Origin: Escherichia coli
GTDB lineage: Bacteria; Pseudomonadota; Gammaproteobacteria; Enterobacterales; Enterobacteriaceae
DNA length: 64,000 bases
Strand: one strand, 5' to 3'
Assembly: GCF_022846255.1 (NCBI RefSeq)
Contig: NZ_AP025682.1
Under the pieces are notes generated by a model. The model did no database searches, was not told the origin of the DNA, and worked only from the letters and a program-made list of their open reading frames with translations. The translations under genes were made by a program, and so were the position numbers. Shown here one piece after another: positions 973-58,460 of the stretch (positions are counted from its first letter, which is position 1; each line of letters begins with the position of its first letter).

Positions 973-1049
973 GGCTACGTAGCTCAGTTGGTTAGAGCAC
1001 ATCACTCATAATGATGGGGTCACAGGTTCGAATCCCGTCGTAGCCACCA
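973..1049 (+). tRNA. metT: tRNA-Met (elongator, anticodon CAU)
   Basis: 77-nt sequence GGCTACGTAGCTCAGTTGGTTAGAGCACATCACTCATAATGATGGGGTCACAGGTTCGAATCCCGTCGTAGCCACCA read directly; cloverleaf and CCA end. Confidence 0.95.
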
Positions 1050-1059
1050 TCTTTTTTTT

Positions 1060-1144
1060 GCGGGAGTGGCGAAATTGGTAGACGCACCAGATTTAGGTTC
1101 TGGCGCCGCAAGGTGTGCGAGTTCAAGTCTCGCCTCCCGCACCA
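1060..1144 (+). tRNA. leuW: tRNA-Leu (anticodon UAG), long variable arm
   Basis: 85-nt sequence GCGGGAGTGGCGAAATTGGTAGACGCACCAGATTTAGGTTCTGG...CGCCTCCCGCACCA read directly. Confidence 0.95.
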
Positions 1145-1167
1145 TTCACCAGAAAGCGTTGTACGGA

Positions 1168-1242
1168 TGGGGTATCGCCAAGCGGTAAGGCACCGGTTTT
1201 TGATACCGGCATTCCCTGGTTCGAATCCAGGTACCCCAGCCA
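1168..1242 (+). tRNA. glnU: tRNA-Gln (anticodon UUG)
   Basis: 75-nt TGGGGTATCGCCAAGCGGTAAGGCACCGGTTTTTGATACCGGCATTCCCTGGTTCGAATCCAGGTACCCCAGCCA. Confidence 0.95.
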
Positions 1243-1276
1243 TATTCTTCGAGTAAGCGGTTCACCGCCCGGTTAT

Positions 1277-1351
1277 TGGGGTATCGCCAAGCGGTAAGGC
1301 ACCGGTTTTTGATACCGGCATTCCCTGGTTCGAATCCAGGTACCCCAGCCA
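1277..1351 (+). tRNA. glnW: tRNA-Gln (anticodon UUG), tandem duplicate
   Basis: Identical 75-nt copy of the glnU sequence. Confidence 0.95.
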
Positions 1352-1366
1352 TCGAAGAAACAATCT

Positions 1367-1443
1367 GGCTACGTAGCTCAGTTGGTTAGAGCACATCACT
1401 CATAATGATGGGGTCACAGGTTCGAATCCCGTCGTAGCCACCA
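1367..1443 (+). tRNA. metU: tRNA-Met (elongator, anticodon CAU), second copy
   Basis: Identical 77-nt copy of the metT sequence. Confidence 0.95.
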
Positions 1444-1491
1444 AATTCTGAATGTGTCGAATACGTTCGGCAAATTCAAAAACCAATTTGT

Positions 1492-1566
1492 TGGGGTATC
1501 GCCAAGCGGTAAGGCACCGGATTCTGATTCCGGCATTCCGAGGTTCGAATCCTCGTACCCCAGCCA
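1492..1566 (+). tRNA. glnV: tRNA-Gln (anticodon CUG)
   Basis: 75-nt TGGGGTATCGCCAAGCGGTAAGGCACCGGATTCTGATTCCGGCATTCCGAGGTTCGAATCCTCGTACCCCAGCCA. Confidence 0.95.
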
Positions 1567-1603
1567 ATTTATTCAAGACGCTTACCTTGTAAGTGCACCC
1601 AGT

Positions 1604-1678
1604 TGGGGTATCGCCAAGCGGTAAGGCACCGGATTCTGATTCCGGCATTCCGAGGTTCGAATCCTCGTACCCCAGCCA
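1604..1678 (+). tRNA. glnX: tRNA-Gln (anticodon CUG), tandem duplicate
   Basis: Identical 75-nt copy of the glnV sequence. Confidence 0.95.
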
Positions 1679-7289: not shown

Positions 7290-8831
7290 ATGGCTTTTGC
7301 CTCATTAATTGAACGCCAGCGCATTCGCCTGCTGCTGGCGTTATTATTCGGTGCCTGCGGAACGCTGGCCTTCTCTCCTTACGATGTCTGGCCTGCGGCG
7401 ATTATTTCGCTGATGGGGCTTCAGGCGCTGACCTTTAACCGCCGTCCACTCCAGTCTGCCGCTATTGGCTTTTGCTGGGGATTTGGTCTCTTTGGCAGCG
7501 GTATTAACTGGGTCTATGTCAGCATCGCGACCTTTGGCGGAATGCCTGGCCCGGTTAACATCTTCCTGGTGGTACTGCTGGCGGCGTATTTGTCGCTGTA
7601 TACCGGACTGTTTGCTGGCGTGCTGTCGCGTCTGTGGCCGAAAACCACCTGGCTGCGCGTGGCGATTGCCGCTCCTGCTCTCTGGCAAGTGACCGAGTTT
7701 CTGCGCGGTTGGGTGCTGACTGGCTTCCCGTGGTTACAGTTCGGCTATAGCCAGATTGATGGCCCGTTAAAAGGGCTGGCACCGCTAATGGGCGTGGAAG
7801 CCATTAACTTCCTGCTTATGATGGTTAGCGGCCTGCTGGCACTGGCGTTAGTCAAACGCAACTGGCGTCCGCTGGTGGTGGCCGTCGTGCTGTTTGCCCT
7901 ACCCTTCCCGCTGCGTTACATCCAGTGGTTTACCCCGCAACCGGAGAAAACCATTCAGGTTTCGATGGTTCAGGGCGATATTCCGCAATCGCTGAAATGG
8001 GACGAAGGCCAGCTTCTTAATACGCTGAAGATTTACTACAACGCAACGGCACCGCTGATGGGCAAATCATCGTTGATTATCTGGCCGGAGTCGGCGATAA
8101 CCGATCTGGAAATTAATCAGCAACCGTTCCTCAAAGCTCTGGACGGTGAGTTGCGCGATAAAGGTAGCTCGCTGGTCACCGGGATTGTCGACGCGCGTCT
8201 CAATAAGCAGAACCGCTACGATACCTACAACACCATCATCACACTGGGTAAAGGTGCACCGTACAGCTACGAATCAGCCGATCGCTATAACAAAAACCAT
8301 CTGGTGCCGTTTGGCGAGTTTGTCCCGCTCGAGTCGATTCTGCGTCCGTTAGCACCGTTCTTTGATCTGCCGATGTCGTCGTTCAGCCGTGGGCCATATA
8401 TCCAGCCGCCGCTGTCGGTAAATGGTATTGAGCTTACTGCGGCTATTTGCTACGAGATCATTCTCGGCGAGCAAGTGCGCGATAACTTCCGCCCGGATAC
8501 CGACTATCTGCTGACTATCTCCAACGATGCGTGGTTTGGTAAGTCTATTGGTCCATGGCAGCACTTCCAGATGGCGCGAATGCGTGCGTTGGAGCTGGCG
8601 CGCCCATTGCTGCGTAGCACCAACAACGGTATTACGGCGGTGATTGGCCCGCAGGGTGAGATTCAGGCAATGATCCCGCAGTTCACCCGCGAAGTGTTGA
8701 CCACTAACGTGACGCCGACCACCGGACTCACACCGTACGCACGTACCGGCAACTGGCCGCTGTGGGTACTGACGGCATTGTTTGGTTTTGCCGCCGTGTT
8801 GATGAGTCTGCGTCAACGACGTAAACGTTGA
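7290..8831 (+). CDS. lnt: apolipoprotein N-acyltransferase
   Basis: 513-aa translation, N-terminal multi-TM region plus C-terminal CN-hydrolase domain; recognised as Lnt. Confidence 0.95.
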
Positions 8832-8935
8832 TGTGAATGATGCGCTGGCCTGCATAATTGCATCAATTTTGCAGGCCAGATAAACCGTTAACACCGCATC
8901 CGGTATCAACAAAACGTACTTTCTCATTGAGCTGT

Positions 8936-8963
8936 GGGGCGTGATTATCATGCCCCTTTTTTC
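8936..8963 (+). terminator. candidate terminator after lnt
   Basis: ggggc-gtgattatcat-gcccc followed by tttttt; the minus-strand 625-aa gene stop codon (8964-8966) abuts the T-run. Confidence 0.45.
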
Positions 8964-10841
8964 TTACGGTTCAGGGATACAAGCCACATTGCCATATTGG
9001 GGATGCCGAATAATTGCCTGCGGATCAAGCGAGCGCGTCCTGTCCAGTTGGATTAACCCGTTCTTCGCCATAACAAATATCTTTCTACCATCCGCTGAAA
9101 AACGAAGGTGATTAACGTAGCTGGCAGGATAAACGCCAATAATCTGCCCGGCATTAATATTGAGCAGGATGACATAACCTTGCAGGCCATATGACACCAA
9201 CGCTAAATATTGACCGTCCGGGCTAATACCCTCAACGGAATAAACGCTCCTGCTACACCATTGCGTCATAATGCTGGCTTGTTGATCCCCTACGCTTATA
9301 CGTGAAATCCCCTGGCTATCGGCAAAAATAATCTCGCCATTTTTTGGTCGGAATCCCATCGCAGAAACGACACCACGCGCATCACCTGTGGGAAAGTCTT
9401 CTTTCTGATGCGTGATGGTATTGATGCGTACAATGTCGCCTCTGACCATACCGGGTATCAACAATGTTTTTTCATCCGGGGAAAGTGCCATAACCCAGGC
9501 GCCTGGTTTACCGCTCGTCCCCGTCCCGTCGTATTTCTCCAGCGGGATATCCGCCACATGCTGATAAGTCACCAGATCAATGGCTGACACACTATTACTG
9601 GTGCGATTCATCACCCAGGCTTTTGTGCCATCACGCGAGAGGATAAGACTGTCAGGATGTGCACCGGTGGTAATCGACTGAATAATCTCCCCCGTCGCCA
9701 CGTTAATGACCGATAACGCATTCGCTTCAAATGAAGTTGCATAAAGCAACGTTTCATCCGGGCTTAACGCCAGCGATCTGACGCCCTGATCTTTACAGCC
9801 ACCACAATGTTTGAGTGACTTTTCTTTCGCTATGGGCGCTGTAAAGGTATGCAGGATTTTCTTTTGTCCGAGGTCGAAAACAACAATACTGTTGGTGTTT
9901 TCAATTGCGGCATATAACGTATTACCATCCCGATTGATCGCCATATCATGGATATCGGCAATCTCAGCGAGTAAATCACCACTGGCCTGCTCACGACTTA
10001 CCGGAGCGGATAATGTTTCCGTGAGGGCGTTGCGCTCCTCCACTAACTGCTGCTTTTTTTGTCGTCGCTCTTGTTCAATCTCCTGCGGATAAAACTCTTC
10101 ACGCAGGCTTTGCCTGACCTGTAAAACTGATTCATCAATCTGCTGCTGCACAAGCCAGATAGCCCCGGTCAGAAGAAGAGTGACCGCAACAATAATTCCG
10201 CCTTCCGTAACGAATCGGTTTTGCCCAACTAAACGCGCGCTCAGCCAACCCAACGCACCACCCGCAATCAGGCCGCCAATGTGGCAAGCGTTATCTATTC
10301 CTGTTTGCCGGGCACCGTACAACAGTGTCAGCGCCACCATACCCAACAGAGGAAATACTCGCCGCTGGTTTTTATGGTGTGTGCCCGCACCTAAAGCAAG
10401 CTGTGTTGCTATCGCAGCGCCAGCTATTCCCATAATCGCCCCGGATGCCCCAACGCTGATGACTATCTGCTCACTTTCGCGTAACGCATAACAGGCACTG
10501 ATTAGCCCACCAAAGACGCCAGAGAATAGCCAGACAATCAGGAGTCGCCATTTCCCCAGTATCCGCTCCGCCACTGCCCCCACCACCAGAAGTGCAAACA
10601 TATTCATCAGCAAATGGGGAAAACTACTGTGCAGAAAGACACTGCTCAATAAGCGCCAGGATTCATCCGACAACGTGAGAGAAGCAACGTTAGCGCCGAG
10701 ATGGATGAGTGCGGATTGATCGACTTCTTCGTAACTCATCCATTGTGCGAGGTAACAAAATATCCCAACACAGAACGCAAAAAGGATCAGGGTTATTGCG
10801 GGTAATTGAACATTTAACGGCTTAACCGAAGATGCAGACAT
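8964..10841 (-). CDS. rhomboid-family intramembrane serine protease (6+1 TM) fused to a C-terminal seven-bladed YVTN-type beta-propeller
   Basis: 625-aa ORF. Rhomboid motifs read in the translation: L1 WR (WRLLSSVF), TM2 LHSSFPHLLMNMF, catalytic GASG (VGASGAIMG), catalytic His (ACHIGGLIAGG), extra 7th helix GGIIVAVTLLLTGAIWLV, charged linker EQERRQKKQQLVEERNAL, then seven SPDG/SRDG-like blade repeats. Confidence 0.8.
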   Translation of the reverse strand: MSASSVKPLNVQLPAITLILFAFCVGIFCYLAQWMSYEEVDQSALIHLGANVASLTLSDESWRLLSSVFLHSSFPHLLMNMFALLVVGAVAERILGKWRLLIVWLFSGVFGGLISACYALRESEQIVISVGASGAIMGIAGAAIATQLALGAGTHHKNQRRVFPLLGMVALTLLYGARQTGIDNACHIGGLIAGGALGWLSARLVGQNRFVTEGGIIVAVTLLLTGAIWLVQQQIDESVLQVRQSLREEFYPQEIEQERRQKKQQLVEERNALTETLSAPVSREQASGDLLAEIADIHDMAINRDGNTLYAAIENTNSIVVFDLGQKKILHTFTAPIAKEKSLKHCGGCKDQGVRSLALSPDETLLYATSFEANALSVINVATGEIIQSITTGAHPDSLILSRDGTKAWVMNRTSNSVSAIDLVTYQHVADIPLEKYDGTGTSGKPGAWVMALSPDEKTLLIPGMVRGDIVRINTITHQKEDFPTGDARGVVSAMGFRPKNGEIIFADSQGISRISVGDQQASIMTQWCSRSVYSVEGISPDGQYLALVSYGLQGYVILLNINAGQIIGVYPASYVNHLRFSADGRKIFVMAKNGLIQLDRTRSLDPQAIIRHPQYGNVACIPEP

Positions 10842-10998
10842 AAGGTGTTTCTTCCTTGAAAAGACAGGTAAAAAGCATTTTTCCCGTGTGCAGTTATCAT
10901 CCCGGCAAACGTCCCATGCCGAAAAGATAACTCTGTCCGAAATATGACTTTTTCAGCCTAAAATTACAATCGTAATTAATTCACCCCTAAGTATTTTT

Positions 10999-11014
10999 TG
11001 GCATGTAAGTTGCT
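10999..11014 (+). promoter_or_regulatory. candidate sigma54 (-24/-12) promoter upstream of gltI
   Basis: TGGCAT-gtaag-TTGCT; GG at 11000-11001 and GC at 11012-11013 with exact 10-nt spacing; about 280 nt upstream of the gltI start. Confidence 0.35.
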
Positions 11015-11295
11015 TTATTTACTGTGTAAGCAATGAAATCAGCCGCAACGCAACCGGGTTGCACCACCACAAATCAGCGGTAGCACCAAAAAGGTGCGGT
11101 TTAAGAATTTTGCTTCGGAATGGTGCGGCGCATCTCGCAAAAACAAACAATAAAACAGCAATATCTTTACATTTAGTCAAACTAAATGTTACCTAACAGG
11201 CACAACACTGCACAATAAAGTTGCAGACGATAACAACACAAACACTCACAACGGGTATCCATGCGTTCTTAACGCAGAAGATAAAGGAGTTGGAT

Positions 11296-12204
11296 ATGCA
11301 ATTACGTAAACCTGCCACAGCAATCCTGGCCCTGGCGCTTTCCGCAGGACTGGCACAGGCAGATGACGCCGCCCCGGCAGCAGGCAGCACGCTGGACAAA
11401 ATCGCCAAAAACGGCGTGATTGTCGTCGGTCACCGTGAATCTTCAGTACCTTTCTCTTATTACGACAATCAGCAAAAAGTGGTGGGCTACTCGCAGGATT
11501 ACTCCAACGCCATTGTTGAAGCAGTGAAAAAGAAACTCAACAAACCAGACTTACAGGTGAAATTGATTCCGATCACCTCACAAAACCGTATTCCACTGCT
11601 GCAAAACGGCACTTTCGATTTTGAATGCGGTTCTACCACCAACAATGCCGAACGCCAAAAACAGGCGGCTTTCTCTGACACTATTTTCGTGGTCGGTACG
11701 CGCCTGTTGACCAAAAAGGGTGGCGATATCAAAGATTTCGCCGATCTGAAAGGCAAAGCCGTAGTCGTCACTTCCGGCACTACCTCTGAAGTTTTGCTCA
11801 ACAAACTGAATGAAGAGCAAAAAATGAATATGCGAATTATCAGCGCCAAAGATCACGGTGACTCTTTCCGTACCCTGGAAAGCGGTCGTGCCGTTGCCTT
11901 TATGATGGATGATGCTCTGCTGGCTGGTGAACGTGCGAAAGCGAAGAAACCAGACAACTGGGAAATCGTCGGCAAGCCGCAGTCTCAGGAAGCCTACGGT
12001 TGCATGTTGCGTAAAGACGATCCGCAGTTCAAAAAGCTGATGGATGACACTATCGCTCAGGTGCAGACCTCCGGTGAAGCGGAAAAATGGTTTGATAAGT
12101 GGTTCAAAAATCCAATTCCGCCGAAAAACCTGAACATGAATTTCGAACTGTCGTACGAAATGAAAGCACTGTTCAAAGAACCGAATGACAAGGCACTGAA
12201 CTAA
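11296..12204 (+). CDS. gltI: glutamate/aspartate ABC transporter periplasmic binding protein
   Basis: ORF 11221..12204; start set at the Met of the signal peptide MQLRKPATAILALALSAGLAQA (ATG 11296, aaggag SD 7 nt upstream). Confidence 0.95.
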   Translation: MQLRKPATAILALALSAGLAQADDAAPAAGSTLDKIAKNGVIVVGHRESSVPFSYYDNQQKVVGYSQDYSNAIVEAVKKKLNKPDLQVKLIPITSQNRIPLLQNGTFDFECGSTTNNAERQKQAAFSDTIFVVGTRLLTKKGGDIKDFADLKGKAVVVTSGTTSEVLLNKLNEEQKMNMRIISAKDHGDSFRTLESGRAVAFMMDDALLAGERAKAKKPDNWEIVGKPQSQEAYGCMLRKDDPQFKKLMDDTIAQVQTSGEAEKWFDKWFKNPIPPKNLNMNFELSYEMKALFKEPNDKALN

Positions 12205-12205
12205 T

Positions 12206-12360
12206 TACAAGAACCAGGGGCGGAAATTCCAGCCCTCTCGATTGTTACGTAGCACGGACAGACTATACGCCTGGTGGTCGTTCCCCATCGGGCCTGAAAA
12301 CCGCAATACGCTGGGTAACAATCTTCGAGGGTAGCAGTTAACGCTGCTACCCTCTTTTTT
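12206..12360 (+). ncRNA. sroC: SroC sRNA (GcvB sponge) from the gltI-gltJ spacer
   Basis: Position between gltI stop and gltJ start; ends in hairpin gagggtagcag-ttaacg-ctgctaccctc plus tttttt (12327-12360); identity assigned from locus knowledge, not alignment. Confidence 0.5.
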
Positions 12361-12373
12361 CTGGAGTAGATTT

Positions 12374-13114
12374 ATGTCTATAGACTGGAACTGGGGTATT
12401 TTTTTACAACAAGCCCCGTTCGGCAACACCACCTATCTTGGTTGGATCTGGAGTGGTTTTCAGGTGACGATCGCTTTGTCGATCTGCGCCTGGATTATCG
12501 CTTTCCTCGTCGGTTCATTTTTCGGCATTTTACGTACCGTTCCAAACCGTTTTCTCTCCGGTCTGGGTACGTTGTATGTCGAACTGTTCCGCAACGTGCC
12601 GTTGATTGTGCAATTCTTTACCTGGTATCTGGTGATCCCGGAGTTGCTGCCAGAGAAAATCGGCATGTGGTTTAAGGCGGAACTGGACCCTAATATTCAA
12701 TTTTTCCTTTCATCCATGCTCTGCCTGGGGTTGTTTACCGCCGCCCGTGTTTGCGAACAGGTACGCGCCGCTATTCAGTCGCTGCCGCGTGGGCAAAAAA
12801 ATGCCGCGCTGGCGATGGGTCTGACGCTACCGCAGGCTTACCGCTACGTACTGTTGCCTAACGCTTATCGCGTTATCGTCCCGCCGATGACCTCCGAGAT
12901 GATGAACCTGGTGAAAAACTCCGCCATCGCCTCGACTATCGGTCTGGTAGATATGGCGGCGCAGGCGGGTAAATTACTCGATTACTCCGCTCACGCCTGG
13001 GAGTCGTTTACCGCCATTACGCTTGCGTATGTGTTGATTAACGCTTTTATCATGCTGGTGATGACGCTGGTTGAACGTAAAGTTCGCCTGCCCGGCAACA
13101 TGGGGGGCAAATAA
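12374..13114 (+). CDS. gltJ: glutamate/aspartate ABC transporter permease
   Basis: 246-aa multi-TM translation recognised as GltJ. Confidence 0.95.
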
Positions 13115-13788
13115 TGTACGAGTTTGACTGGAGTTCCATTGTCCCTTCCCTGCCATATCTGCTCGACGGGCTGGTGATCACGCTGAAAATCACCGTCACG
13201 GCAGTCGTGATTGGTATTTTGTGGGGCACCATGCTGGCGGTGATGCGCTTGTCCAGCTTTGCGCCCGTAGCGTGGTTTGCCAAAGCCTACGTTAACGTAT
13301 TCCGCTCGATTCCTTTAGTTATGGTTTTGCTGTGGTTTTACCTGATTGTGCCGGGATTTCTGCAAAACGTGCTGGGATTATCGCCAAAAAATGATATCCG
13401 TTTAATTTCGGCAATGGTGGCGTTTTCGATGTTTGAAGCGGCCTACTATTCAGAGATTATCCGTGCCGGTATTCAAAGTATTTCCCGTGGTCAGTCGAGC
13501 GCCGCGCTGGCGTTGGGGATGACTCACTGGCAGTCGATGAAACTGATTATTCTGCCGCAGGCGTTCCGCGCGATGGTGCCGCTGCTGCTCACTCAGGGCA
13601 TCGTACTGTTCCAGGATACCTCACTGGTGTATGTGTTATCTCTGGCCGATTTCTTCCGTACCGCCTCAACCATTGGTGAGCGTGATGGTACGCAGGTTGA
13701 GATGATCCTGTTTGCCGGATTTGTTTATTTCGTTATTAGCCTTAGCGCGTCGTTGTTGGTCAGCTACTTGAAAAGAAGGACAGCATAA
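13114..13788 (+). CDS. gltK: glutamate/aspartate ABC transporter permease
   Basis: 224-aa multi-TM translation; start overlaps gltJ stop. Confidence 0.95.
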
Positions 13789-14513
13789 TGATTACCCTGA
13801 AAAATGTTTCAAAATGGTATGGTCACTTTCAGGTGCTGACCGACTGCTCAACCGAAGTGAAAAAAGGCGAAGTGGTGGTGGTTTGCGGCCCGTCTGGTTC
13901 CGGCAAATCAACGCTGATTAAAACCGTCAACGGCCTCGAACCGGTGCAGCAAGGTGAAATCACCGTCGATGGCATCGTGGTTAACGACAAGAAAACCGAT
14001 CTGGCAAAGCTGCGTTCCCGCGTCGGGATGGTATTCCAGCATTTCGAGCTGTTCCCTCATCTGTCGATTATCGAAAACCTGACCCTGGCGCAGGTGAAAG
14101 TGCTTAAACGCGATAAAGCACCCGCTCGTGAAAAAGCATTGAAATTGCTGGAGCGCGTGGGACTTTCCGCACATGCCAATAAATTTCCGGCACAGCTTTC
14201 CGGCGGTCAGCAGCAGCGTGTGGCGATCGCTCGCGCATTGTGTATGGATCCTATTGCGATGCTGTTTGACGAACCGACATCGGCGCTGGATCCGGAGATG
14301 ATCAACGAAGTGCTGGACGTAATGGTCGAACTGGCGAATGAAGGAATGACCATGATGGTGGTGACCCACGAAATGGGCTTTGCCCGTAAAGTGGCGAATC
14401 GGGTGATCTTTATGGACGAGGGTAAAATTGTCGAAGACTCGCCGAAAGACGCTTTCTTCGATGATCCGAAATCGGACCGCGCAAAAGACTTCCTCGCGAA
14501 AATCCTGCATTAA
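13788..14513 (+). CDS. gltL: glutamate/aspartate ABC transporter ATPase
   Basis: 241 aa; Walker [13 protein letters not shown] signature [15 protein letters not shown]. Confidence 0.95.
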
Positions 14514-14630
14514 TCACTCTGGCGCGCATACCCAAGTGCGCGCCATCTCACGCTTTATCGTTTCGCTCCTCGTATCTGTTACATCCTGGCGGTACCCTTG
14601 TCGCAAAGAAGCACACAACAAGGAGCAACA

Positions 14631-15566
14631 ATGGCACTGCCAATTCTGTTAGATTGCGACCCAGGTCATGATGACGCTATCGCAATAGTTCTCGCCCTCG
14701 CCTCACCAGAGCTTGATGTCAAAGCAATTACGTCTTCCGCCGGAAACCAGACTCCAGAAAAAACCTTACGCAATGTTCTGCGTATGCTGACCTTGCTTAA
14801 TCGCACCGATATTCCGGTAGCAGGCGGCGCGGTAAAACCATTAATGCGTGATTTGATTATCGCGGACAATGTGCACGGCGAAAGCGGTCTCGACGGCCCT
14901 GCATTACCGGAACCGACGTTCGCACCGCAAAACTGTACGGCGGTGGAGCTGATGGCGAAAACGCTGCGTGAAAGTGCGGAACCCGTCACCATTGTTTCTA
15001 CCGGACCGCAAACGAACGTTGCCTTGCTGCTCAATAGCCACCCGGAACTGCATAGCAAAATTGCCCGTATCGTTATTATGGGCGGCGCAATGGGGCTTGG
15101 TAACTGGACGCCTGCGGCTGAATTTAATATTTACGTTGACCCGGAAGCGGCAGAAATTGTCTTCCAGTCAGGAATTCCGGTGGTGATGGCCGGTCTGGAT
15201 GTTACTCACAAAGCACAAATCCACGTTGAAGACACTGAGCGTTTCCGCGCGATTGGCAACCCTGTTTCAACCATTGTTGCCGAACTGCTGGATTTCTTCC
15301 TCGAATATCATAAAGACGAAAAATGGGGCTTTGTCGGCGCACCGCTGCATGACCCATGCACCATCGCCTGGCTGTTAAAACCGGAGTTGTTTACCACTGT
15401 TGAGCGCTGGGTTGGCGTGGAAACACAAGGGAAATATACCCAGGGTATGACGGTTGTTGATTATTATTATCTGACCGGCAATAAACCGAATGCTACTGTA
15501 ATGGTCGATGTTGATCGTCAGGGCTTTGTTGATTTACTGGCTGATCGTCTGAAATTTTACGCTTAA
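14631..15566 (+). CDS. rihA: pyrimidine-specific ribonucleoside hydrolase
   Basis: ORF 14598..15566; start set at [23 protein letters not shown] (DxDxxxDD nucleoside hydrolase motif), aaggag SD upstream. Confidence 0.9.
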
Positions 15567-54245: not shown

Positions 54246-54474
54246 TCCTCTGATTTACAAAACACGCTAATTCGTCTCCCATAAACCATGACGATTAAGA
54301 TTTATACATAATGCGCTACATTGAGGAATTCCCTGAATGTGACGCAAATCACTTCAAAGAGTGAGCAACAGTCAGTATCATCATGTGAGTTAAACCCTCG
54401 CCGCCTGACGGTGAGGGTTTTCTTTTGGGTATGTTTATCTGCGACACTCGCAGTACCGACGACATGGAGTAAAA

Positions 54475-58089: not shown

Positions 58090-58460
58090 CTATACTTCCT
58101 CCGTGTTTTCGATGAGATGTAAGGTAACCAATTTTTGCCGATTCGGCTAATGCGTTTCCATTATCAAATCGATAAGTTTTACCTTACAACCTTCGTAAGA
58201 CAACTTTGTGAACTTTGCACCGCCAGCGGCGATAAAAAGTAAAATGGCCCCCTTTCCAGGTGACCGTGTAATCTGAACTACCCTTTGGTATCTTCAGCGC
58301 CTGCCTGCAGGCTGAGGTGTTGCCCTTACAAATGCAACAACGACATGGATTACAACACCCTCATAAACAAAGGGCAATCACCTGATCTAAGCTCTTACCT
58401 ATGACAGTGATAGGTTATGCCTTTTACTCGACTTTTGCACTGACTGAAAAGGACAAATTA

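What the first reader, a model, noticed from the sequence alone, without database searches (positions are those of the whole stretch)
12206..12360. gltI-gltJ spacer encodes a terminator-ended RNA consistent with the SroC sponge
The 169-nt spacer inside the gltIJKL operon ends in a strong hairpin plus T6 (12327-12360) immediately before gltJ. This matches the locus from which the SroC sRNA, which titrates GcvB, is released in E. coli and Salmonella. Identity is by position and structure, not by alignment.
Basis: partly seen in the sequence, partly recalled or inferred. Interest (0 to 1): 0.25.

Follow-up and report, generated by a model that had tools for sequence, protein, structure and literature searches.

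The report
The known SroC small RNA
The stretch between gltI and gltJ is the already well-studied E. coli small RNA SroC, which is cut out of the glutamate/aspartate transporter mRNA and destroys the regulator RNA GcvB; it is an ordinary copy.

Summary
Window 12200-12362 (+) matches the Rfam family sroC (RF00369) over the full model at 172.6 bits, against a gathering score of 45. It is 162/163 identical to the annotated sroC gene b4763 of E. coli K-12 and 100% identical to the same stretch in other complete E. coli genomes. The spacer is 169 nt. It ends in a 12-bp hairpin plus T6 at 12327-12360, 13 nt before the gltJ ATG. Both GcvB contact sites that were mutationally validated in Salmonella are intact. 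BS1 (GGACAGAC, 12256-12263) pairs with K-12 GcvB 156-163. BS2 (UCGUUCC, 12278-12284) pairs with GcvB 13-19. They lie 14 nt apart, as published (PMC4474525). An alignment of 57 Enterobacteriaceae species shows compensatory changes in the stems and nearly invariant contact sites. The one difference from K-12 (G at 12274) turns an A-U pair into G-U and does not change the predicted fold. Two small corrections apply. The RNA starts a few bases inside gltI (about 12197-12200), not at 12206. Its action is RNase E-mediated destruction of GcvB, not simple titration. This is already known, so interest is low.

The parts
12200..12362 (+). sroC, the SroC small RNA, at the extent given by the K-12 annotation and the Rfam model. 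The Salmonella numbering implies a 5' end about 3 nt further upstream, near 12197.
   Evidence: RF00369 at 172.6 bits, model positions 1-163. 162/163 identical to K-12 b4763. 100% identical in other E. coli genomes.
12217..12236 (+). Stem-loop 1 (GGGGCGGAAAUUCCAGCCCU)
   Evidence: MFE structure. Helix 1 is 87.6% paired across 57 species, with 2 pairs changed on both sides.
12240..12323 (+). Stem-loop 2: a long composite hairpin that carries both GcvB contact sites
   Evidence: MFE structure. The upper helix is 97.3% paired, with compensatory changes in 6 of 9 pairs. The long-range lower helix has compensatory changes in 6 of 13 pairs.
12256..12263 (+). BS1, GGACAGAC, in the internal loop of SL2. 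It pairs with GcvB 156-163 (GUCUGUCC, the R3/SL4 region).
   Evidence: Exact 8-nt complementarity to K-12 GcvB at -15.3 kcal/mol. It contains the C that corresponds to Salmonella C63, which pairs with GcvB G160 (PMC4474525). Invariant in 57 species, although the search pattern fixed 6 of these 8 bases.
12278..12284 (+). BS2, UCGUUCC, the apical loop of SL2. It pairs with GcvB 13-19 (GGAACGA, SL1).
   Evidence: Exact 7-nt complementarity at -10.9 kcal/mol. Predicted unpaired probability is 0.99. It corresponds to Salmonella C87:G14. It is invariant in 55 of 57 species and was not part of the search pattern.
12274..12274 (+). The only difference from K-12 sroC: G here, A in K-12. It lies in the 5' arm of the SL2 upper helix, between BS1 and BS2.
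   Evidence: G-U replaces A-U. The MFE changes by 0.6 kcal/mol, with the same structure and the same site accessibility. The same allele is found in complete E. coli genomes.
12327..12360 (+). Intrinsic terminator (12-bp stem, 4-nt loop, T6). It sets the 3' end of SroC and of the monocistronic gltI mRNA. It is leaky, and read-through gives gltIJKL.
   Evidence: Conserved in 55 of 57 species. Leakiness and its role are taken from PMC4474525.
11296..12204 (+). gltI, the parental gene. Its mRNA 3' end is processed into SroC.
   Evidence: ORF. RefSeq annotation under the match.
11218..11255 (+). C/A-rich element in the gltI 5' UTR, the target of the GcvB R1 seed. It closes the feedback loop between gltI, SroC and GcvB.
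   Evidence: Predicted duplex with K-12 GcvB 61-95 at -40.1 kcal/mol. [quoted passage not shown]
12363..13114 (+). The gltJ ribosome-binding site (GGAG at 12363-12366) and coding sequence (12374-13114). It is expressed only from transcripts that read through the terminator.
   Evidence: Sequence, ORF, annotation.

Best explanation
This is the sroC gene of E. coli. Transcription from the gltI promoter mostly stops at the leaky intrinsic terminator at 12327-12360, which gives a monocistronic gltI mRNA. Read-through gives gltIJKL. RNase E, working from the 5' end with the help of Hfq, trims the gltI mRNA down to a stable, tightly folded fragment of about 160-163 nt that begins around the gltI stop codon (about 12197-12200). 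This fragment, SroC, uses two short exposed sequences to pair with two distant parts of the GcvB small RNA. BS1 lies in an internal loop and BS2 in the apical loop of stem-loop 2. The pairing exposes GcvB to RNase E, while SroC is not consumed. Loss of GcvB lifts its repression of many amino-acid transport and metabolism mRNAs. These include gltI itself, which GcvB targets at the C/A-rich element at 11218-11255. Shown here are the sequence identity, the fold, the terminator, the complementarity to K-12 GcvB, and conservation with covariation. Taken from the literature and inferred for this strain are the processing, the Hfq dependence, GcvB decay and the physiological effect.
For: The Rfam sroC match is full length at 172.6 bits against a gathering score of 45. 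The sequence is 162/163 identical to the annotated K-12 sroC, in the same position between gltI and gltJ, and 100% identical to other E. coli genomes. The stretch is present in 5421 of 5426 complete genomes. The terminator has a 12-bp stem plus T6, and the fold has z = -6.0. BS1 (8 nt) and BS2 (7 nt) are exactly complementary to K-12 GcvB 156-163 and 13-19. They are 14 nt apart and include the bases equivalent to the mutated and compensated pairs C63:G160 and C87:G14 (PMC4474525). BS2 is predicted to be 99% unpaired and BS1 59%, in line with the published probing. Across 57 Enterobacteriaceae species the structure is 88.5% paired, with 162 cells changed on both sides against 59 +/- 8 in shuffles. 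Slid controls give 37-54% paired. The published work shows RNase E and Hfq dependence, GcvB half-life rising from 1.7 to more than 15 min without sroC, and equal function of the E. coli homologues. RIL-seq in E. coli finds up to about 70% of GcvB chimeras with SroC in stationary phase (PMC9299463).
Against: Nothing in the sequence argues against it. Several limits apply. The gcvB gene of this genome is not in the window, so K-12 GcvB served as a proxy. An 8-mer plus a separate 7-mer of complementarity arises in about 20% of shuffled SroC sequences. The pairing is therefore convincing only because it coincides with the experimentally validated sites. No expression data exist for this strain. 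The exact 5' end (12197 or 12200) is inferred from numbering offsets, not measured here.
Confidence: 0.97

Rival explanations
1. The spacer is only an intra-operon attenuator. Under this view the hairpin plus T-run sets the GltI : GltJKL ratio, and the RNA upstream of it is an inert decay remnant without a trans-acting role.
For: The terminator is real and sits 13 nt before gltJ. Excess production of the periplasmic binding protein through this leaky terminator is an accepted function (PMC4474525).
Against: This role is not exclusive of the sRNA role. An attenuator alone would not explain the invariant 7-8-nt loops complementary to GcvB, or the compensatory changes that maintain SL1 and SL2 across 57 species. 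Point mutations in the equivalent bases abolish GcvB decay in Salmonella, and compensatory mutations restore it.
Confidence: 0.02
2. The region encodes a small protein on the opposite strand: the 75-aa GTG ORF at 12205-12432 (-).
For: The mechanical ORF list contains it.
Against: In 44 of 57 species the longest stop-free antisense stretch over the region is under 60 aa, and in some as short as 30 aa. Indels in the spacer are not multiples of three. Variation follows RNA base-pairing, not codon structure. The ORF also overlaps the gltJ start on the other strand, and RefSeq annotates no such gene.
Confidence: 0.005
3. SroC is an independently transcribed sRNA with its own promoter inside the 3' end of gltI.
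For: Some 3'-UTR sRNAs, such as DapZ and MicL, are made this way.
Against: No sigma-70-like site was found on the + strand in 10800-14800. This is weak evidence, because the scan also missed the gltI promoter. Published data show a 5' monophosphate, no transcription start site, and a requirement for RNase E and a 5'-P precursor.
Confidence: 0.005

Closest known systems
SroC (Rfam RF00369; E. coli K-12 b4763; Salmonella SroC of Miyakoshi, Chao & Vogel 2015, PMC4474525)
   Same: It has the same locus (gltI-gltJ spacer, sense strand) and 162/163 identity to K-12. It also has the same three structural modules (SL1, SL2, terminator), the same two GcvB contact sites with the same 14-nt spacing, and the same 3' terminator.
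   Different: There is one base difference from K-12 (G at 12274 against A), a natural E. coli polymorphism that keeps the pair as G-U. Compared with Salmonella, Citrobacter, Enterobacter and Klebsiella, the Escherichia terminator stem is longer (12 against 7 bp), because of about 9-11 extra bases.
Other RNase E-processed 3'-UTR-derived sRNAs (SdhX, CpxQ, NarS, MalH, OppZ; review PMC9438474)
   Same: All are cut from the 3' end of a parental mRNA by RNase E. All share the mRNA's intrinsic terminator as an Hfq-binding 3' module and have no promoter of their own.
   Different: SroC comes from an operon-internal terminator, not from the end of the transcription unit. Its main target is another sRNA (a sponge or decoy action) and not an mRNA.
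Other sRNA sponges (chbBC spacer against ChiX; 3'ETS-leuZ against RyhB/RybB; AgvB against GcvB)
   Same: Each is an RNA by-product that base-pairs with an Hfq-dependent sRNA and lowers its activity.
   Different: SroC induces RNase E cleavage of its partner through two separate short duplexes and is not co-degraded. ChiX decay on chbBC involves its terminator region and PNPase.

Membership tests
SroC (RF00369) | Sequence and secondary structure match the family covariance model above its gathering score | tested here: met
   172.6 bits against 45, E = 2.5e-36, model positions 1-163 of 163
SroC (RF00369) | [quoted passage not shown] | tested here: met
   gltI 11296-12204, sroC 12200-12362, gltJ 12374-13114. 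The layout is the same as K-12 b0655/b4763/b0654.
SroC (RF00369) | 3' end formed by a conserved Rho-independent terminator | tested here: met
   12-bp stem plus T6 at 12327-12360. Conserved in 55 of 57 species. Termination itself was not measured.
SroC (RF00369) | Two short sites (BS1, BS2), 14 nt apart, complementary to GcvB R3/SL4 and SL1 | tested here: met
   GGACAGAC pairs with GcvB 156-163 and UCGUUCC with GcvB 13-19, using K-12 GcvB. This matches PMC4474525. The gcvB allele of this genome is not in the window.
SroC (RF00369) | Conserved fold supported by covariation (SL1, SL2) | tested here: met
   16 pairs have changes on both sides. The covariation score is 0.200 against 0.111 in shuffles and 0.047-0.069 in slid controls. 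RNAalifold independently recovers the SL2 upper helix and the terminator.
SroC (RF00369) | 5' end made by RNase E processing (5' monophosphate), with no promoter of its own | not testable with these tools
   Only a weak negative is available: no sigma-70-like site on the + strand. Processing is shown in Salmonella.
SroC (RF00369) | Stable Hfq-bound RNA of about 160 nt that shortens GcvB half-life | not testable with these tools
   From the literature only (PMC4474525; PMC9299463).

The most novel reading that the evidence does not exclude
The SroC region may also be a regulated terminator. The near-invariant bases outside the GcvB contact sites (CCCUCUCGAUUG and AAUCUUCGAGGGUAG) could form a cis element, or bind a factor, that tunes read-through into gltJKL and the release of SroC. 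Miyakoshi et al. raised this possibility. The Escherichia/Kluyvera-specific lengthening of the terminator stem would then shift that set-point. Nascent-transcript folds do show a transient CUCGA:UCGAG pairing that borrows 3 nt of the terminator's 5' arm. However, the full terminator wins by about 12 kcal/mol, and the U39:A129 pair is broken in 10 of 57 species.
Probability: 0.08. Interest if true: 0.4.

Novelty: already known. Interest (0 to 1): 0.06.

Why it matters
It matters little as a discovery. SroC has been known since 2003, and its mechanism as a GcvB sponge was worked out in 2015. The value here is in annotation. RefSeq/PGAP records for most E. coli genomes list only gltI and gltJ under this stretch, so the sRNA is easily missed. 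[quoted passage not shown]

Tried and rejected
1. Whole-molecule RNAduplex of SroC against GcvB gave meaningless full-length duplexes. I replaced it with exact-complement k-mer searches and local duplexes.

2. Statistical support for the pairing from complementarity alone fails. About 20% of shuffled SroC sequences show an 8-mer plus a separate 7-mer complementary to GcvB. Two other 7-8-mers also match (ACCGCAAT with the GcvB terminator at 189-196, and UGCUACC with GcvB 114-120). They lie in stems and are taken as chance.

3. I tested an antiterminator or switch hypothesis, pairing CUCUC/CUCGA at 36-42 with GAGGG/UCGAG at 126-132. Forcing it costs about 12 kcal/mol, and the only variable pair is broken in 10 of 57 species with a single compensatory case. 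It is not supported.

4. The G at 12274 has no functional effect that I could detect. The predicted structure and site accessibility are unchanged, and the allele occurs in other E. coli genomes.

5. The antisense 75-aa ORF is not conserved.

6. The genome contigs pattern scan returned many non-enterobacterial chance matches. These had only 1-103 of 163 identities, against 112 or more for the sequences kept as homologues, and were discarded. One further apparent homologue, the Kosakonia locus L052, was cut off by its contig end and was left out. Two Python calls failed because a locus file had not been synchronised.

Full report
**Observation.** gltI runs from 11296 to 12204 with stop codon TAA at 12202-12204, and gltJ starts at 12374. 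The spacer 12205-12373 is therefore 169 nt. The consensus scan finds a stem at 12327-12354 (GAGGGTAGCAGT / GCTGCTACCCTC; 12 pairs, 7 G-C, 4-nt loop). It is followed by TTTTTT at 12355-12360 and is clearly the strongest terminator-like site in 10800-14800. The 163-nt stretch 12200-12362 folds at -65.7 kcal/mol, against -42.7 +/- 3.8 for 200 dinucleotide-preserving shuffles (z = -6.0).

**Identity.** A scan of the whole window against Rfam 15 gives sroC (RF00369) at 12200-12362 on the + strand. The score is 172.6 bits against a gathering score of 45, E = 2.5e-36, and model positions 1-163 of 163 are covered. In E. coli K-12 MG1655 the ncRNA gene sroC (b4763, 686681-686843) sits between gltI (b0655) and gltJ (b0654), overlapping the last 5 nt of gltI. 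An alignment of window 12190-12380 with that locus shows a single difference: G at window 12274 where K-12 has A. The 163-nt sequence is 100% identical to several complete E. coli genomes. The stretch is present in 5421 of 5426 complete genomes, where RefSeq lists only gltI and gltJ under it.

**Anatomy.** The predicted structure has three modules.
- A short SL1 lies at 12217-12236.
- A long composite SL2 lies at 12240-12323.
- The terminator lies at 12327-12360.

The published work on Salmonella (Miyakoshi, Chao & Vogel 2015, PMC4474525) describes two GcvB-binding sites of 7-8 nt that are 14 nt apart. One lies in an internal bulge and one at the tip of SL2. They were defined by probing and by the compensatory mutant pairs SroC C63/C87 and GcvB G160/G14.

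I took the K-12 gcvB sequence (b4443) as a proxy and found exact complementarity at both sites.
- GGACAGAC (SroC positions 57-64, window 12256-12263) pairs with GcvB 156-163.
- UCGUUCC (positions 79-85, window 12278-12284) pairs with GcvB 13-19.

The two sites are exactly 14 nt apart. The bases opposite G160 and G14 are the C residues at window 12259 and 12283. This implies that Salmonella numbering equals K-12/Rfam numbering plus 3, so the Salmonella-type 5' end would map near window 12197. That is an inference, not a measurement. BS2 is predicted to be 99% unpaired and BS1 59%, in line with the probing data.

One caution applies to the pairing. An 8-mer plus a separate 7-mer complementary to GcvB arises in about 20% of shuffled SroC sequences. 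The pairing is convincing because it coincides with the validated sites, not on statistics alone.

**Comparative evidence.** A pattern scan of one genome per species (AGCACGGACNNACTATA) returned 97 loci. I aligned 56 of these from Enterobacteriaceae with the window. The genera are Escherichia, Salmonella, Citrobacter, Enterobacter, Klebsiella, Raoultella, Kluyvera, Kosakonia, Siccibacter, Pluralibacter and others. They showed 112 or more identities out of 163 to the window's SroC. The remaining loci were chance matches.

- BS2 was not part of the search pattern. It is invariant in 55 of 57 sequences, and Siccibacter carries a U-to-C change.
- The two free positions of the pattern inside BS1 are also invariant.
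- RNAalifold independently recovers the SL2 upper helix and the terminator.
- Counting pairs on the window-derived structure gives 88.5% of cells paired. There are 16 pairs with changes on both sides, and 162 such cells against 59 +/- 8 in shuffles.
- The covariation score is 0.200, against 0.047-0.069 when partners are slid by 1-3 columns. The SL2 upper helix has compensatory changes in 6 of 9 pairs.

The window's G at 12274 makes the only G-U at a pair that is otherwise A-U (23), G-C (23) or C-G (7). This changes the MFE by 0.6 kcal/mol. It leaves the structure and the accessibility of both sites unchanged.

**Mechanism.** The following steps are taken from the literature and inferred for this strain.
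- The single gltI promoter yields full-length gltIJKL mRNA and, through the leaky terminator, a monocistronic gltI mRNA.
- 5'-end-dependent RNase E cleavage with Hfq releases SroC, which carries a 5' monophosphate and has no transcription start site.
- SroC pairs with GcvB at the two sites and provokes its RNase E-dependent decay without being co-degraded. GcvB half-life rises from 1.7 min to more than 15 min without sroC.
- GcvB targets such as opp, dpp and gltI itself are thereby de-repressed.
- The E. coli homologues were shown to be equally functional. RIL-seq in E. coli finds up to about 70% of GcvB chimeras with SroC in stationary phase (PMC9299463).
- Further reported partners are MgrR and the fliE and flhBAE mRNAs (PMC9438474).

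The window also holds the other half of the loop. The C/A-rich element in the gltI leader at 11218-11255 forms a predicted -40.1 kcal/mol duplex with the GcvB R1 region.

**Rivals.** A pure attenuator role is real but not exclusive. It does not explain the conserved loops or the covariation. The 75-aa antisense ORF at 12205-12432 is not conserved, and most species have stops in it. An own promoter is not indicated (weak evidence) and is contradicted by published 5'-end data.

I also tested whether the invariant bases outside the GcvB sites could form an antiterminator. Prefix folds show a transient CUCGA:UCGAG pairing. However, the terminator form wins by about 12 kcal/mol, and the one variable pair is broken in 10 of 57 species. 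The idea is not supported.

**Verdict.** Two corrections to the finding apply. The RNA starts at about 12197-12200, inside gltI, and ends at about 12360-12362. Its action is induced degradation of GcvB and not passive titration.

Noticed in passing
window 8964-10841 (-): A 625-aa ORF lies between lnt and gltI. RefSeq E. coli records annotate it as a rhomboid family intramembrane serine protease. K-12 lacks it and carries IS5D about 100 bp upstream of gltI instead. Only 3231 of 5426 complete E. coli genomes cover at least 80% of window 8800-11300, and the best identity is 98.4%.
   Followed up: partly
window 12338-12343, compared with alignment A2 columns 162-170: Escherichia and Kluyvera have about 9-11 extra bases in the sroC terminator. 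These lengthen the stem from 7 to 12 bp relative to Salmonella, Citrobacter, Enterobacter and Klebsiella. The Rfam consensus follows the short form, so the cmscan alignment is out of register at the 3' end.
   Followed up: partly
L027 2030-2150 (-) (Citrobacter braakii); also L041, L089, L096: About 125 nt are inserted between the gltI stop codon and SroC stem-loop 1, displacing the usual 5' end and processing context. The insert (…CTTACATGAGTAAGTAACCGGGATGAA…) resembles an ERIC/IRU repeat. That resemblance is from memory and was not tested.
   Followed up: partly
L015 3543-3740 (-) and L050 11865-12062 (+) (Siccibacter): SL1, BS1 and SL2 are kept, but BS2 has a U-to-C change and the 3' part differs. 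The lower-stem 3' arm, the terminator and the gltJ junction are replaced by unrelated sequence, which suggests a truncated or remodelled SroC.
   Followed up: no
window 973-1678 (+): A cluster of seven tRNA genes: Met(CAT), Leu(TAG), Gln(TTG) x2, Met(CAT), Gln(CTG) x2. This matches the metT-leuW-glnUW-metU-glnVX cluster of E. coli; those gene names are from memory.
   Followed up: partly
window 40895-41343 (-), 54321-54429 (+), 58234-58327 (-): Three other Rfam matches were found. A cspA-thermoregulator-like 5' UTR plus gene scores 136 bits and is probably cspE by map position (from memory). The rnk leader scores 124.9 bits. STnc70 scores 44.1 bits, just above its gathering score of 40.
   Followed up: no
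E. coli genome search results: Two of the 5431 sroC-containing places are on plasmids, and 5 of 5426 complete genomes lack the region altogether.
   Followed up: no
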